Shown: positions 35,344 to 43,384 of the stretch, piece after piece | Position numbering within the stretch: position 1 is the stretch's first letter | How the letters are laid out: each line of letters begins with the position of its first letter | Source of the DNA: the human T2T-CHM13v2.0 reference genome, Homo sapiens | Strand: one strand, 5' to 3' | Assembly: GCF_009914755.1 (NCBI RefSeq) | Contig: NC_060926.1 | Length of the DNA: 64,000 nucleotides | The notes under the pieces: model-generated | The model's input: the letters and a program-made list of their open reading frames with translations, nothing else | Database searches by the model: none | What the model was told of the DNA's origin: nothing | Made by a program: the position numbers and the translations under genes

Positions 35344-35478
35344 CTGAGCATGCTCCAGGAACTCATTATATCCTCCCAAAAGCAAACCCTTTCCTCCACG
35401 ATCCAACAGCTCTCTCCAGATGATAGGGGAATTCTTGTGACTCCACTTATTCTTTTCACACACATCTTTTAGCCAATC
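35344..35478 (-). CDS. MDH1B: MDH1B coding exon 3 (DWLKDVCEK…[11 protein letters not shown])
   Basis: Acceptor CAACAG; donor GTATAT; 135 nt, phase 0/0. Confidence 0.94.
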
Positions 35479-36591
35479 CTGTTGAATGATATCCCAAGTG
35501 AAGTCATATATTAAATCTGCCTGAGAATTCAATTTCATACTTTAGAATTCAAACATTAAAATACTAGGTTGCTTTTAATGTCACTATATACACATAATAT
35601 AATTTAGATATCTTCAAAGAGTAAAATGTAAATATAGAAAATAGTGATGTTAGTAACAGATTAATTAGATAAGAAAGCATATTCTTCAAATTAATTGACC
35701 AAATAAAGGTACTGAAAGTTGCTCTTTTTGCTGAGGAGACCTGGAATCCAAGTGTTTAGCTTAAAGAGAGGTCACATGTTCCAACTCAACTGATTTTTAA
35801 AAAAATTCAACTAGTTTTGCCCTTATTCTTTTACACATGCAATATTTCCAGTCTTAGGGGCATATAAAACTTGATACTTTTTTTAAAATCTGTGAGTGTG
35901 GTTTATGTAGTTCAGACTAAATTAATAAGCTAAAAGTTATTTGGAGATTTCCGACAATATTTATCAGAAAAAATTTAAATTATCATTATCTGATTTATAT
36001 AGGCTAGGCCTTCCAATGACAAGATCTGAGTACAGTCAAACAGAAACATTTTTATCAGCAAAGTACATGGCAGCAGTCTTAAAAACCACGTCATTGGAGG
36101 CATGGGTAATGAGGCCACCTTACCAATAAAATCCTGGAAACTGATTTCCTTGCTAATATTGAAGATCTGCCTGCCTTTATCTCACTTAAAGCAAACAATG
36201 CTGCTATGAGGATTCCAACACGGTCCCTCTAGCCACAGCATAGCCAGACCAGTGAACTACTGGGCCCATGAAGGAAAGAGACATTACCCCAAAAAACCTT
36301 CTGCACCCTGCAAAGCATGTTAATGTCCCAGCAGGAGCTGCAAGGGCATGTACAAGACTGGACCCTTACAGTGCTGAATCAAGAGTGGAACATGAAGTTA
36401 GACAAGGGAGAATTTATTAGTATGAATCACTTTTCGGCAATTCAAGAGTGTATACCCTGGCAAGGACCTCAGAAGACAGGGACAACATGTTGCCAGACTG
36501 GCTCTTAGAAACTTGGAGAGAGTAATTAAATAAAATAGAAATGCCAGACTTCATGGAAGACGGTAGAAGAATGGATCAAAAGACTAGTGAT

Positions 36592-36898
36592 GCCAGGTGT
36601 GGTGGCTCACTCCTATAATCCCAGCACTTTGGGAGGCCGAGGCGGGGGGAACATCTGAGGTCAAGAGTTCGAGACAAGCCTGGTCAACATGGTGAAACTC
36701 CATCTCTACTAAAAACACAAAATTTAGCCAGGCGTGGTGATGGGTGCCTATAATCCCAGCTACTCAGGAGGCTGAGGCAGGAGAATTGCTTGAACCTGGG
36801 AGGCGGAGGTTGCAGTGAGCCGAGATTGCACCATTGCACTCTAGCCTGGGCGACAAGGGCGAAACTCCATCTCAAAACACAAAAACAAAAAAAAAAAA
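36592..36898 (+). mobile_element. Alu (AluS-like)
   Basis: Dimeric Alu; TSD actagtga. Confidence 0.9.
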
Positions 36899-37068
36899 CT
36901 AGTGAACGTGGTACTATGGAAGGCTAGAAAGCCCGCCATTCAACCATGTTCTCTGGAAGGGATTGGAGGATACAACATGCACCTAAGTGATAAGGAATGC
37001 ACTGGTGAGAGGGGTCCTGGTGTCACTGAGGAGCCCAGTGTGGCTGTCCGTTCTAGGCCAAGGCTGTT

Positions 37069-37824
37069 TGTTTTTTTTTTTTTTCTTTATTTAAACTTCT
37101 ATTTTAAGTTCAGGGGTACAAGTGCAGTTTTGTTACATAGGTAAATTTGTGTCATGGGGGTTTGTTTTACAAATTATTTCATCACCCAGGTATTCAGCCT
37201 AGTGCCCGTTAGTTATTTCTCGTGATCTTCTTCCTCCTCCCACCCTCCACCCTCCGATAGGCCCCAGTGTGTGTTGTTTCCCTCCCTGTGTCCACGTGTT
37301 CTTATCATTTAGCCCCCACTTCTAAGTGAGAATATGTGGTATTTGGTTTTCTGTTCCTGTATTACTTTGCTAAGGATAATGATCTCCAGCTCCATCCATG
37401 TCCCTGCAAAGGACATGATCTCATTCCTTTTCGTGGCTGTGTAGTATTTCATGATGTATATGTACCACATTTTCTTTCTCCAGTCTATCATTGATAGGCA
37501 TTTGGGTTGATTCCATGTCTTTGCTATTGTGACTAGTGTTGCAATGAACATATGTGTGCATGTGTCTTTATAAAAGAATGATTTATATTTTCAGGGGTAT
37601 ATACACAGTAATGGGATTTTTGGGTTGAATGTTATTTCTATCTTTCTATGCTTCCACCAATAGCCTATAAGTGTTCCTTTTTCTCCACAACCTCGCCAGC
37701 ATCTGTTATTTTTTGACTTTTAAATAATAGTCATTCTGACCGGTATGAGATGGAATCTTATTGTGGTTTTGATTTGCATTTCTCTAATAACCTGCAATGT
37801 TGAGCATTTTTTCATATGATTGTA
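37069..37824 (-). mobile_element. 5'-truncated L1PA 3' end
   Basis: Poly(T) plus antisense L1 3' sequence; 12-bp TSD gccaaggctgtt (37057-37068 / 37825-37836). Confidence 0.9.
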
Positions 37825-42100: not shown

Positions 42101-42123
42101 CAGTGTTCAAAAATATTCTTCTG

Positions 42124-42422
42124 GGCCAGGTGTGGTGGTGCATGCCTGTAATCTTGGCACTTTGGGAGGTCAAGGTGGGCAAATCACTTGAGCGTAGGAG
42201 TTCAAGACCAGCGTGGGCAACATGACAAAACCCCATCTCTACAAAAATACAAAAATTAGCTGGGCATGCTGGTGTATGCCTGTAGTCCCAGCTACTTGGG
42301 AGGCTGAGGTGGGAGGATCGCTTGAGCCCAGGAGGTCAAAGCTGCTGTGAGCCACGATTGCACCACTGCAATCCAGCCTGGGTGACAAAGTGAGAGCCTG
42401 TCTCAAAAAAAAAAAAAAAAAT
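42124..42422 (+). mobile_element. Alu (AluJ-like)
   Basis: Dimeric Alu with poly(A). Confidence 0.9.
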
Positions 42423-43362
42423 CTCCTGTGGATGGTAGATGTCAATTGTGTTCAATGCATCAAAGAGATCAAATAAGTCAAAGACTAAACAGCTTCTATA
42501 AAAGTCAGTGGTGACTTTGGTGACAGCAGTTTCTGTCAGGAAGCAGAAGTAGAAGCCTTCTTCCAAGACTGATTGGAAGGCAGAACTGGAGATGGAAGAG
42601 CAGTCTACTCTTTTAAGAAACTTTACGAGGAGAGGAGGTAGGTACCATGGATTGTTGTAATAAAAGCCTTCTCAGTTGAGTCCTTGCTGTCAACCAGCAC
42701 TTTCAATCATTCTCTCCGTTGCTGCCAAGACAGGCTTCCTAAAATGCAAACTCATTAAGACTACTCTCCTGCTTAAAATTTTTCTATAATTCCTCATTGC
42801 TTTCAGGATACAGTTCAAACACCTTTGCTTGACCTACATGAAATGCAAGGACCTGGCTCCTGCTCCTGTTGTAGCCCCAGGTCCTGTCACGCCCCACATA
42901 TCCAGATCTTCTGTTAGGCCAGGAAGCTTCCTGCCTCTCTGCTTTTATTTGGAATAGCCTCCTCAGCTCACACCTTCACAACTCAGCTCCTGTAATACCT
43001 TCCCCAGCCAGTTCCTTGTGTCCACCTCTCCCTCATCCCCCAAACCCAGATTAGGAGTCTACGCTCCCAGAGGCCTGTGCAGGTCTCCTTCATCGCGTTA
43101 ATCACACCGTATCAAAAGTACATGTTCTGTGCCCCATGAGACTGAAAGCTCCTCTAAGGCAGGGATATGTTTCCCTCCAATGCATCCCCAGTGTCCCACA
43201 ATGCTTGCAAGGCGCACCGTCACGGTCCAGTAAATAACTTTGAATAAATCTATAGCAAAGCATGGAGCGGTCCGTATAGAGGCTGCCAAGCCAAGCGGCC
43301 ATGGGAGGTGAGCTGTTGTCGGCGTTTTGAGCAATCTGCGGGCGGACGCGGGGATCACTCAC

Positions 43363-43384
43363 CCGCGATGACGAATTTGGCCAT
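43363..43384 (-). CDS. MDH1B: MDH1B coding exon 1 (MAKFVIA)
   Basis: ACC ATG G strong Kozak at 43384; donor GTGAGT at 43362; 22 coding nt. Confidence 0.93.

What the first reader, a model, noticed from the sequence alone, without database searches (positions are those of the whole stretch)
35344..43384. MDH1B exons 1-3 encode a glutaredoxin-like CPYY domain fused to the pseudo-MDH
The first 90 aa (exons 1-3, ending in phase 0) have no MDH1 counterpart. By eye they align end to end with the recalled E. coli Grx1 sequence. [21 protein letters not shown] matches VIFGRSGCPYCVRAKDLAEKL; DFRI matches DFQY; NSPIIW matches TVPQIF (cis-Pro motif); LGGYNEF matches IGGYTDF (glutathione-binding GG motif). 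The active site is monothiol-like CPYY (codons 39109-39098): the attacking Cys is kept and the resolving Cys is lost. A helical, Glu-rich linker in exon 4 joins it to the MDH fold. Inference: MDH1B may be a Grx-pseudo-dehydrogenase redox or glutathionylation module rather than a malate dehydrogenase, plausibly in motile cilia or sperm given the X-box. I cannot check whether this has already been reported.
Basis: inference. Interest (0 to 1): 0.82.

Follow-up and report, generated by a model that had tools for sequence, protein, structure and literature searches.

The report
Glutaredoxin-fold domain on ciliary MDH1B
The first three coding exons of human MDH1B encode a small glutaredoxin-shaped domain with a single conserved cysteine, attached to a dead malate dehydrogenase that sits in radial spoke 3 of motile cilia; the shape is clear, but whether the cysteine does any redox chemistry is untested.

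Summary
Exons 1-3 of MDH1B (minus strand) splice into 90 residues ending in phase 0, with CPYY at 39098-39109.

The glutaredoxin reading of the fold is well supported:
- A 38-sequence profile of the domain finds E. coli Grx1 as its only significant non-self match among 177,635 PDB sequences, at E 2.3e-4 and end to end.
- hhalign gives 95% probability, against at most 5.8% for 100 shuffles.
- An AlphaFold2 model (pLDDT 90) has the b-a-b-a-b-b-a order.
- All 50 listed matches of a search of 48,161 chains are thioredoxin-fold.

Among 91 diverged orthologues, Cys12 is kept in 85 and the cis-Pro position in 88. The resolving Cys position is never Cys. Pfam does not recognise the domain.

Two 2025 cryo-EM studies place MDH1B, paired with MDH1, in radial spoke 3. 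One describes this "small N-terminal globular domain" as a spacer touching CFAP91, C10ORF53 and AK9. Neither uses the words thioredoxin or glutaredoxin.

The closest solved relative outside MDH1B is the N-terminal domain of PPIL6, a radial spoke 1/2 protein (Z 11.7). Redox or glutathionylation function remains inference.

The parts
43363..43384 (-). Exon 1 coding part: Met1-Ala7 plus the first base of codon 8. It encodes the start of strand b1 (FVIAG).
   Evidence: model strand 2-9
39008..39120 (-). Exon 2: residues 8-45. It covers the end of b1, the CPYY motif, helix a1, strand b2 (FRIHKI) and the start of a2.
39098..39109 (-). Codons for Cys12-Pro13-Tyr14-Tyr15. This is the position of the Grx CPYC active site at the N-terminus of helix a1.
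   Evidence: Aligned to CPYC of Grx1. Cys is kept in 85 of 91 orthologues and position 15 is never Cys.
35344..35478 (-). Exon 3: residues 46-90. It covers helix a2, Ser62-Pro63, strand b3, the RGGKG hairpin, strand b4 and helix a3, and ends in phase 0.
35425..35430 (-). Ser62-Pro63, aligned with the Val-Pro (cis-proline) of Grx1 just before strand b3.
   Evidence: Pro is kept in 88 of 91 and Ser in 80 of 91.
35386..35400 (-). Arg72-Gly-Gly-Lys-Gly76: a conserved insertion between b3 and b4 that Grx1 lacks (7-residue gap in Grx1 in the hhalign alignment).
   Evidence: G73 is kept in 84 of 91, G74 in 79 and K75 in 67. This block has the lowest pLDDT within the fold (75; only the C-terminal tail, 67, is lower).
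35359..35376 (-). Gly80-Gly81-Tyr-Asn-Glu-Phe85, aligned with GGYTDF of Grx1 (end of b4 and N-cap of a3).
   Evidence: G80 is kept in 89 of 91, G81 in 73, position 83 is N/S/D in 73, position 84 is E/D in 83, and F85 in 83.
35005..35147 (-). Exon 4: residues 91-138. This is the Glu-rich linker that joins the Grx-like domain to the dehydrogenase fold.
   Evidence: [quoted passage not shown]
16589..33612 (-). Exons 5-12 (with introns): the MDH1-like fold, lacking the glycine motif, the substrate arginines and the catalytic His position (Ile314 at 29152-29154).
   Evidence: Pfam Ldh_1_N is below threshold (12.7 bits against a cut-off of 27).
43424..43436 (.). X-box-like palindrome GTTTCCTGGCAAC inside exon 1 (5' UTR), with one mismatch to GTNRCC-N-RGYAAC.
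   Evidence: By count in the window it is not above chance; only its position near the annotated transcript start is suggestive.

Best explanation
Exons 1-3 of MDH1B encode a divergent glutaredoxin-fold domain of about 90 residues.

Anatomy. The order of elements is b1-a1-b2-a2-b3-b4-a3. One cysteine sits in a C-P-x-[Y/F] motif at the N-terminus of helix a1. Ser-Pro lies at the cis-proline position. A family-specific RGGKG hairpin lies between b3 and b4. A GG-x-[N/S]-[E/D]-F motif starts the last helix.

Context. One helix (exon 4) ties the domain to a catalytically dead MDH1-like fold. In motile cilia and sperm that fold pairs with MDH1 in the neck/head of radial spoke 3.

What is shown. The fold is shown here, as are the homology to Grx, the conservation pattern and the loss of the MDH catalytic set. 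The placement in the spoke, and the domain's contacts with CFAP91, C10ORF53 and the AK9 C-terminal domain, come from published cryo-EM.

What is inferred. The domain's main job is docking and spacing within the spoke. Cys12 and the cis-Pro loop are kept together as a redox-sensitive thiol site, that is, a sensor or a site of S-thiolation. That site would report local oxidant or glutathione state to a spoke that also carries MDH1, adenylate kinases and PKA. I do not think it is a free, turning-over glutaredoxin.

My odds for each part: Grx fold and common ancestry about 0.95; docking role about 0.85; functional thiol about 0.45.
For: Fold and homology:
- The profile of 38 N-domains finds Grx1 (1ego/1grx) at E 2.3e-4 over 4-90 against 3-80. 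These are the only non-self matches below 0.1 among 177,635 sequences.
- hhalign gives 95.2-95.4% over 79 columns, with negative controls at or below 5.8%. The human sequence alone gives 86.9%.
- The AF2 model has pLDDT 90.1 and pTM 0.81, with Grx topology.
- In Foldseek, non-self matches begin with 1grx (E 6.7e-4) and the listed matches are almost all thioredoxin-fold.
- In VIA-align over 48,161 chains, Grx1 scores Z 10.4 (83 residues, 2.6 A), and all 50 listed rows are Grx, GST-N, CLIC or Trx.

Conservation (91 representatives). Cys12 is kept in 85 of 91 and Pro63 in 88 of 91. Both are among the five most conserved of 95 columns. All 3 sequences that lack Pro63 also lack Cys12.

Spoke placement. 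The exon 3 peptide and the profiles match MDH1B chains 9d2f_F (mouse RS3) and 9fqr_Xq (bovine sperm). My model superposes on 9d2f_F at 1.4 A over 95 residues. Passages of bioRxiv 10.1101/2025.05.19.654877 describe the domain as a spacer contacting CFAP91, C10ORF53 and AK9. Passages of PMC11779644 place the MDH dimer in RS3 next to the PKA regulatory subunit.

Redox context. Passages of PMC6859573 review redox control of axonemal motility and axoneme-anchored thioredoxin-domain proteins.
Against: - Pfam's models, Glutaredoxin included, give no match to the exon peptides or to six orthologous N-domains even at E up to 10.
- Cys12 is not invariant. It is Ser in 5 and Asp in 1 of 91, and Pro13 is kept in only 65 of 91.
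- The residue before the cis-Pro is Ser, not the Val of Grx1.
- Human PPIL6, the closest structural relative, keeps CPNF but lacks the proline and the GG. This suits a scaffold that is drifting away from catalysis.
- Both cryo-EM papers treat the domain as structural.
- The deposited RS3 models were built by fitting AlphaFold2 models. Agreement of my model with 9d2f_F is therefore not independent proof of the fold.
- I could not read coordinates, so I do not know whether Cys12 is exposed or buried in an interface.
- No glutathione, Fe-S or thiol-reactivity test was possible.
- The spliced human protein could not be folded directly. A bat orthologue fragment stood in for it (78 of 92 aligned residues identical to human).
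Confidence: 0.55

Rival explanations
1. Pure scaffold. The domain descends from glutaredoxin but has no thiol chemistry left. The former active-site groove is simply a protein-binding surface within radial spoke 3. Cys12 is kept for packing or for capping helix a1.
For: - The cryo-EM description is of a spacer contacting CFAP91, C10ORF53 and AK9.
- The resolving Cys is absent in 91 of 91.
- Five of the 6 replacements of Cys12 are the isosteric Ser.
- PPIL6's related domain has lost the proline and the GG.
- The rest of MDH1B is also a dead enzyme.
- Thioredoxin-fold binding modules with no catalysis, such as the SasA N-domain and KaiB, are among the Foldseek matches.
Against: - Ser or Asp would cap a helix at least as well and is one base change away. 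Yet Cys is kept in 85 of 91 sequences whose mean column identity is about 48%.
- Loss of Cys12 and loss of Pro63 go together: 3 of 3 sequences lacking Pro63 also lack Cys12. This is what one expects if the two form one functional site. The 3 may not be independent events.
Confidence: 0.33
2. Active monothiol glutaredoxin. The domain binds glutathione and catalyses (de)glutathionylation of neighbouring spoke proteins, or it holds a glutathione-ligated Fe-S cluster. This is what the first reader proposed.
For: - The nucleophilic Cys, the cis-Pro position and the GG-x-[N/S]-[E/D] motif are kept. In Grx1 these align with the glutathione cleft; that cleft assignment is recalled from the 1GRX work, not tested here.
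- Structural neighbours include glutathione-bound Grx and GST N-domains at Z 8-11.
- A related N-domain is fused to an FAD/NAD oxidoreductase in a Physarum-named transcript. That is a plausible electron partner.
Against: - The motif belongs to no known active class. It is neither CPYC nor CGFS.
- Pro13 and Tyr14 vary.
- The domain is fixed in a large complex, with three protein contacts.
- No Pfam Glutaredoxin match was found.
- No activity data were found in the searched papers.
Confidence: 0.1
3. Not related to glutaredoxin. The resemblance is chance or convergence onto a common a/b sandwich.
For: - There is no Pfam match.
- The first, shallow profile gave only E 0.11-0.15 to Grx1.
- Z values around 8-10 are called 'middling' in the tool's own notes.
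Against: - The deeper profile is significant and aligns end to end, with the motifs in register.
- The hhalign controls separate cleanly.
- Every one of the 50 listed matches in an unbiased search of 48,161 chains is a thioredoxin-fold protein.
Confidence: 0.02

Closest known systems
E. coli glutaredoxin 1 (GrxA; class I dithiol Grx; PDB 1EGO/1GRX)
   Same: The secondary-structure order is the same. The cysteine sits at the same place in a C-P-Y-x motif. The proline before b3 and the GGY-x-[D/E]-F motif are shared. Scores: profile E 2.3e-4, hhalign 95%, Z 10.4 over 83 residues at 2.6 A, 24-28% identity.
   Different: The second (resolving) cysteine is Tyr/Phe. Ser replaces Val before the proline. 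There is an extra conserved RGGKG hairpin. The domain is fused to a dead dehydrogenase and built into an axonemal complex. It is not recognised by Pfam Glutaredoxin.
N-terminal domain of PPIL6 (PDB 8J07 chain S), and a 310-residue T. brucei flagellar chain (9E5C 3h/3i)
   Same: These are the best non-self structural matches. PPIL6 scores Z 11.7 over 87 residues at 1.8 A with 21% identity. The trypanosome chain scores Z 10.8 over 94 residues. The MDH1B profile aligns to PPIL6 end to end (6-91 against 28-111), with CPNF under CPxF and the Trp positions shared. Both are N-terminal add-ons to enzyme-like folds, both sit in radial spokes, and both lie next to adenylate kinases: PPIL6 with AK8 in RS1/RS2, MDH1B with AK9 in RS3.
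   Different: The sequence match alone is not significant (E 0.14). Human PPIL6 lacks the cis-Pro and the GG. The partner fold is cyclophilin-like, not MDH-like. I could not obtain PPIL6 orthologues for a profile-profile test. The trypanosome chain's identity is not given by the tool.
Class II monothiol glutaredoxins (CGFS type; e.g. yeast Grx6, PDB 3L4N/5J3R)
   Same: They share a single active-site cysteine on a Grx fold. Structural match is Z 7.8-8.1.
   Different: The motif here is C-P-x-[Y/F], not CGFS or CSYS. There is no evidence of Fe-S or glutathione binding. That class II Grx bind Fe-S through glutathione is established knowledge, not tested here.
Thioredoxin glutathione reductase (N-terminal Grx domain fused to a pyridine-nucleotide oxidoreductase; PDB 2X99, 4LA1)
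   Same: An N-terminal Grx-fold domain is fused to a nucleotide-dependent oxidoreductase fold. Structural match is Z 8.8-9.1.
   Different: In TGR both parts are catalytically active and the Grx has a full active site (established knowledge). Here the oxidoreductase part has lost its catalytic set and the Grx part is monothiol.
Axoneme-anchored thioredoxin-domain proteins (Chlamydomonas outer-arm LC3/LC5; human TXNDC3/NME8, TXNDC6/NME9)
   Same: These are thioredoxin-superfamily modules built into the axoneme and tied to redox control of beating (passages of PMC6859573).
   Different: They carry the dithiol WCGPCK motif and sit on outer dynein arms. They are not on radial spokes and belong to the thioredoxin branch, not the Grx/GST branch.
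Non-catalytic thioredoxin-fold binding modules (SasA N-domain, KaiB)
   Same: They use the thioredoxin fold purely for protein-protein contact. They appear among the Foldseek matches (6X61, 5JWR).
   Different: Structural match is weaker (TM 0.49-0.59). They do not keep an active-site cysteine (recalled), whereas MDH1B keeps Cys12 in 85 of 91.

Membership tests
Glutaredoxin (thioredoxin-fold superfamily, Grx/GST branch) | Four-stranded sheet with three helices in the order b1-a1-b2-a2-b3-b4-a3 | tested here: met
   The AF2 model (pLDDT 90.1) has E2-9, H13-28, E32-39, H41-55, E64-68, E76-80, H82-94. All 50 listed matches are Grx, GST-N or Trx folds.
Glutaredoxin (thioredoxin-fold superfamily, Grx/GST branch) | Significant sequence-profile similarity to a bona fide glutaredoxin | tested here: met
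   Profile A2 against PDB gives Grx1 at E 2.3e-4, end to end. hhalign gives 95%, against at most 5.8% for 100 shuffles and at most 1.2% for 10 unrelated proteins.
Glutaredoxin (Pfam PF00462 as curated) | Score above the Pfam gathering threshold | tested here: not met
   No Glutaredoxin match at E up to 10 for the exon peptides or for any of 6 orthologous N-domains.
Glutaredoxin | Nucleophilic cysteine at the N-terminus of helix a1 | tested here: met
   Cys12 aligns with Cys11 of Grx1. It is kept in 85 of 91 representatives.
Class I dithiol glutaredoxin (CPYC type) | Second, resolving cysteine three residues on (C-x-x-C) | tested here: not met
   Position 15 is Tyr or Phe in 82 of 91 and Cys in 0 of 91.
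Class II monothiol glutaredoxin (CGFS type) | CGFS active-site motif | tested here: not met
   The motif spectrum is CPYY, CPYF, CPFY and so on. No CGFS occurs among the 91.
Glutaredoxin | cis-Proline loop before b3 (TVP in Grx) | tested here: inconclusive
   Pro63 aligns with the Grx1 proline and is kept in 88 of 91. The cis conformation could not be read, because no coordinates are returned. The preceding residue is Ser, not Val.
Glutaredoxin | GG motif and following polar/acidic pair that line the glutathione site | tested here: inconclusive
   G80 is kept in 89 of 91, G81 in 73, position 83 is N/S/D in 73, and position 84 is E/D in 83. These are aligned to GGYTD of Grx1. Glutathione binding itself was not tested.
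Glutaredoxin | Glutathione-dependent thiol-disulfide oxidoreductase activity | not testable with these tools
   This needs HED or roGFP2 assays with a C12S control.
MDH1B orthologues / radial spoke 3 subunit | Identity with the chain modelled as MDH1B in RS3 structures | tested here: met
   The exon 3 peptide matches 9fqr_Xq at E 6.9e-24 and 9d2f_F at E 5.4e-23. The gibbon orthologue matches them at E 8e-260 and 2e-244.
Active cytoplasmic malate dehydrogenase (LDH/MDH type 2) | Glycine-rich NAD motif, substrate arginines, Asp-His catalytic pair | tested here: not met
   In the alignment to bovine MDH1, TGAAGQIA becomes TSASAPAC, PRRDGMERKD becomes [17 protein letters not shown] becomes GVEGEAK, and WGNHS becomes WGNIS (human letters). 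Which of these residues are catalytic is recalled. Pfam Ldh_1_N scores 12.7 bits against a cut-off of 27.
PPIL6-type radial-spoke N-terminal domain | Closer to PPIL6-N than to free glutaredoxins | tested here: inconclusive
In sequence, E is 0.14. No PPIL6 orthologue profile could be built.

The most novel reading that the evidence does not exclude
Radial spokes carry their own family of monothiol glutaredoxin-like modules. MDH1B-N sits in spoke 3. PPIL6-N sits in spokes 1 and 2, with a counterpart in the trypanosome flagellum. A relative in Physarum is fused to an FAD/NAD reductase. Each is attached to an enzyme-like fold and sits beside an adenylate kinase. Their conserved cysteine would act as a thiol switch that couples local NADH, glutathione or oxidant state to spoke conformation, and through the spoke-bound PKA and adenylate kinases to the ciliary and sperm beat.
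Probability: 0.18. Interest if true: 0.8.

Novelty: new variant of a known kind. Interest (0 to 1): 0.5.

Why it matters
Redox state is known to change ciliary and flagellar beating. The axonemal thiol proteins named in the review passages I read are thioredoxin-type light chains on the outer dynein arms.

Radial spoke 3 was only modelled in 2025. It is described there as a cluster of metabolic and signalling enzymes: MDH1/MDH1B, AK7, AK9 and PKA.

The 'small N-terminal globular domain' of MDH1B is a glutaredoxin-derived module with a conserved lone cysteine, and PPIL6 in spokes 1/2 carries a look-alike. Together these give a concrete, mutable residue (Cys12) with which to ask whether radial spokes sense redox state.

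They also define a domain family that Pfam does not yet cover.

If the cysteine proves inert, the result is still a tidy annotation: a dead glutaredoxin fused to a dead dehydrogenase, reused as a building block.

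Tried and rejected
Searches that returned nothing useful:
- Pfam on the single exon peptides and on six N-domains gave nothing relevant.
- The first, shallow profile (6 tetrapod sequences) gave only E 0.11-0.15 to Grx1, ranked behind a chance AIR2 zinc-knuckle match. The result became significant only with 38 diverse sequences.
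- The ESM Atlas returned unnamed eukaryote clusters at 0.89-0.91 and Grx/GST_N-named clusters at only 0.82-0.84. By the tool's own notes these are leads only.
- The exon 6 peptide alone was too short to reach MDH1 in the PDB. The gibbon orthologue was used instead.

Steps that could not be run:
- Searching the window's own genome with the alignment was not accepted. I therefore did not look for paralogues such as PPIL6 in the genome.
- PPIL6 orthologues could not be obtained, so the MDH1B-N against PPIL6-N profile-profile test was left out.
- Earlier findings of the scan were not open.
- Solvent exposure of Cys12, its distance to Cys52 and its distance to partner chains could not be measured, because no coordinates are returned.

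X-box. No strict or relaxed X-box consensus occurs in the window. Only a one-mismatch site was found, at chance frequency.

Taxa. The taxa of the most diverged representatives stay unknown, apart from the P0262 group. A profile of diverged N-domains still returned only animals among the 120 listed of 254. Co-occurrence with motile cilia beyond animals was therefore not tested here.

Literature:
- Two loose searches were swamped by thioredoxin papers and told me nothing.
- The strict searches found MDH1B+thioredoxin in 8 papers, MDH1B+glutaredoxin in 2, PPIL6+thioredoxin in 5 and 'radial spoke'+glutaredoxin in 12. Judged from titles and abstract starts only, all look like gene-list co-mentions.
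- A 2009 survey of glutaredoxin domain fusions has no mention of malate, dehydrogenase, cyclophilin or isomerase.
- Figures and supplements of the two cryo-EM papers were not seen. A domain label there, or in InterPro, CATH or TED, may already name the fold.

Full report
**What is in the sequence.** On the minus strand, the coding part of exon 1 (43363-43384), exon 2 (39008-39120) and exon 3 (35344-35478) have canonical GT/AG borders. They join into 90 residues that end in phase 0, inside a 518-residue reading frame. CPYY lies at 39098-39109, Ser-Pro at 35425-35430, RGGKG at 35386-35400 and GGYNEF at 35359-35376. Exon 4 (35005-35147) encodes a Glu-rich stretch. Cytoplasmic MDH1 aligns only from residue 130 of the gibbon orthologue P0022. 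P0022 is 92 of 95 identical to human over the N-domain.

**Is the likeness to glutaredoxin real?** Because the human domain is split over three exons, I could not hand it whole to the remote tools. I worked with orthologues found from the exon 3 peptide: 227 proteins, of which the 120 listed are nearly all mammals.
- A bat fragment, P0032 (95 residues; 78 of 92 aligned residues identical to human), served as the stand-in.
- Pfam gives nothing for the exon peptides or for six N-domains, even at E 10.
- A six-sequence profile put E. coli Grx1 just below significance in the PDB (E 0.11-0.15).
- A scan of 1.84 billion representatives with that profile gave 337 hits at E <= 0.001, of which 150 were listed.
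- From these and the first set I built a 38-sequence alignment of the N-domain (A2).
- With A2, Grx1 (1ego/1grx) is the only non-self match below E 0.1 among 177,635 PDB sequences. It scores E 2.3e-4 and aligns 4-90 against 3-80 of 85.
- hhalign of A2 against the grxA product, read from NC_000913, gives 95.2-95.4% over 79 columns.
- The ten neighbouring E. coli proteins reach at most 1.2%. One hundred shuffles of Grx1 reach at most 5.8%, with score 18.5 against 45.2.
- The human sequence alone gives 86.9%.

**Structure.**
- AlphaFold2 on P0032 with A2 gives mean pLDDT 90.1 and pTM 0.81. The element order is strand 2-9, helix 13-28, strand 32-39, helix 41-55, strands 64-68 and 76-80, helix 82-94. 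That is the glutaredoxin order.
- Foldseek against the PDB returns the two solved MDH1B chains first: 9d2f_F at TM 0.94 and 1.4 A, and 9fqr_Xq. Next comes Grx1 (E 6.7e-4), and the rest of the list is almost entirely thioredoxin-fold proteins.
- VIA-align on Foldseek's list, and independently on 48,161 representative chains, gives:

| Chain | Z | Aligned residues | rmsd |
|---|---|---|---|
| 9d2f_F (self) | 17.6 | 95 | 1.4 A |
| PPIL6 (8j07_S) | 11.7 | 87 | 1.8 A |
| T. brucei flagellar chain (9e5c_3i) | 10.8 | 94 | 2.6 A |
| F. tularensis Grx1 | 11.2 | 83 | 2.3 A |
| E. coli Grx1 | 10.4 | 83 | 2.6 A |

- All 50 listed rows in both runs are Grx, GST N-domains, CLIC, Ure2 or thioredoxins.
- One caution applies. 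The deposited RS3 models were made by fitting AlphaFold2 models into maps. Their agreement with my model is therefore not an independent test. The match to crystal and NMR glutaredoxins is.

**Conservation.** Of the 150 listed representatives, I kept the 91 whose match spans profile positions <=10 to >=79. The other 59 are partial matches, mostly single-exon fragments, and were dropped. Among the 91:

| Position | Kept in (of 91) |
|---|---|
| Cys12 | 85 (Ser in 5, Asp in 1) |
| Pro13 | 65 |
| Position 15 (resolving Cys position) | Cys in 0; Tyr/Phe in 82 |
| Ser62 | 80 |
| Pro63 | 88 |
| Gly80 | 89 |
| Gly81 | 73 |
| Position 83 | Asn/Ser/Asp in 73 |
| Position 84 | Glu/Asp in 83 |

- Cys12 and Pro63 are among the five most conserved of 95 columns.
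- The three sequences without Pro63 (P0174, P0184, P0231) all lack Cys12 as well. They may not be three independent events.
- The family is therefore uniformly monothiol, with a signature of its own. It also has a conserved RGGKG hairpin that Grx1 lacks.

**What the protein is and where it sits.**
- The dehydrogenase part aligns to bovine MDH1, but the glycine motif, the arginine-rich loop, the LDHNR stretch and the WGNHS histidine are all replaced (the human letters are the same). The catalytic role of those residues is recalled knowledge.
- The PDB holds MDH1B in two axoneme entries.
- I read passages of the mouse RS3 preprint, bioRxiv 10.1101/2025.05.19.654877. An MDH1/MDH1B heterodimer forms one strut of the spoke-3 neck. 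[quoted passage not shown] That domain 'serves as spacer' by touching CFAP91, C10ORF53 and AK9.
- I read passages of PMC11779644. They place the MDH dimer in the centre of the RS3 head, next to the PKA regulatory subunit. They place PPIL6 in spokes 1 and 2, touching AK8, DNAJB13, CAMK4, RSPH1 and DYDC2.
- Neither text contains the words thioredoxin or glutaredoxin. Figures and supplements were not seen.

**How it most likely works.**
- Shown: the domain is a glutaredoxin descendant, and it is a docking piece of radial spoke 3.
- Inferred: Cys12 and the proline loop are kept as a thiol site.
- My reason is that the isosteric Ser, one base change away, supplies 5 of the 6 replacements of Cys12. 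Yet Cys persists in 85 of 91 sequences whose mean column identity is about 48%. It is also lost together with the proline.
- A tethered sensor or S-thiolation site fits a domain held by three neighbours better than a free-turning enzyme does.
- It also fits a spoke that carries MDH1, adenylate kinases and PKA, in an organelle whose beat responds to redox state (passages of PMC6859573).
- The pure-scaffold rival remains strong. The published role is structural. The resolving Cys is gone everywhere. Pro13 drifts. PPIL6's copy has lost the proline and the GG.
- A fully active monothiol glutaredoxin seems least likely among the homology-based readings.

**Comparison with what is known.**
- It works like, and descends from, the Grx/GST branch of the thioredoxin fold. 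It fails the curated Pfam model, and it fails the motif tests for class I (CPYC) and class II (CGFS).
- I therefore file it as a divergent glutaredoxin-like family, not as a glutaredoxin.
- Its nearest solved kin appear to be the N-terminal domains of PPIL6 and of a trypanosome flagellar chain. The alignment is nevertheless full length, with CPNF under CPxF.

**Novelty and limits.**
- The domain's existence and contacts are in print.
- Its fold class, its conserved cysteine and the PPIL6 link were not found in the strict searches: MDH1B+thioredoxin 8 papers, MDH1B+glutaredoxin 2, PPIL6+thioredoxin 5, 'radial spoke'+glutaredoxin 12. All were judged from titles and abstract starts only.
- They are also absent from a 2009 survey of Grx fusions.
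- Automatic resources that I could not consult (InterPro, CATH-Gene3D, TED, AlphaFold DB clusters) may already label the fold.
- Named orthologues among the 120 listed of 254 are all animals: vertebrates, a hemichordate, echinoderms, molluscs, an annelid, a rotifer, a tunicate and an insect.
- One diverged group (P0262, P0355, P0356; the last bears a Physarum transcript name) attaches the same N-domain and helix to FAD_binding_6 plus NAD_binding_1 instead of MDH. The match to gibbon MDH1B over residues 4-123 is 31% identical, at E 7e-16.

**Verdict.** The ciliary setting is confirmed from the literature. The redox function is open.

Noticed in passing
outside the window (PDB 8j07_S, 9e5c_3h/3i); compared with window 35344-43384: The best non-self structural matches of the MDH1B N-domain are two axonemal chains. 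One is the N-terminal domain of PPIL6, a radial spoke 1/2 protein (Z 11.7). The other is a 310-residue chain of the T. brucei flagellar repeat (Z 10.8). Human PPIL6 shows CPNF at the matching place. This suggests a spoke-specific family of Grx-like add-ons to enzyme-like folds.
   Followed up: partly
proteins P0262, P0355, P0356 (not in the window): In a small group, one member of which bears a Physarum transcript name, the same N-domain plus linker helix is fused to FAD_binding_6 and NAD_binding_1 (a ferredoxin-reductase-type oxidoreductase) instead of an MDH fold. This version also lacks the RGGKG hairpin.
   Followed up: partly
orthologues listed: Among the listed orthologues, nearly all whose precomputed Pfam column shows both Ldh_1_N and Ldh_1_C are invertebrates (molluscs, echinoderms, hemichordate, annelid, tunicate; the rotifer and one mollusc show Ldh_1_C only). 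Most vertebrate ones show Ldh_1_C only. The NAD-binding half may have decayed further in vertebrates.
   Followed up: no
window 43424-43436 and 43441-43719: A one-mismatch X-box-like palindrome, GTTTCCTGGCAAC, lies in the MDH1B 5' UTR a few bases inside the annotated transcript start. MDH1B and FASTKD2 start 277 bases apart on opposite strands. By count the motif is at chance level in the window.
   Followed up: partly
window codon for Cys52 in exon 3 (35458-35460, minus strand): A second cysteine in helix a2 (DVCEKN) is Cys in 57 of 91 representatives and Asn in 22. Its distance to Cys12 could not be measured.
   Followed up: no
proteins P0174, P0184, P0231: The only three representatives without the cis-Pro-position proline are also among the six without Cys12. 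This looks like joint loss of one site.
   Followed up: partly
ESM Atlas clusters: The nearest unnamed Atlas clusters to the N-domain are 120-160-residue eukaryotic proteins, with taxa given as Mucoromycota, Oomycota and Bacillariophyta (scores 0.89-0.91). They may be stand-alone or fragmentary relatives outside animals.
   Followed up: no
protein P0272: A stick-insect (Timema) entry named acid phosphatase (PF00328) carries the N-domain. This is probably a merged gene model rather than a real fusion.
   Followed up: no
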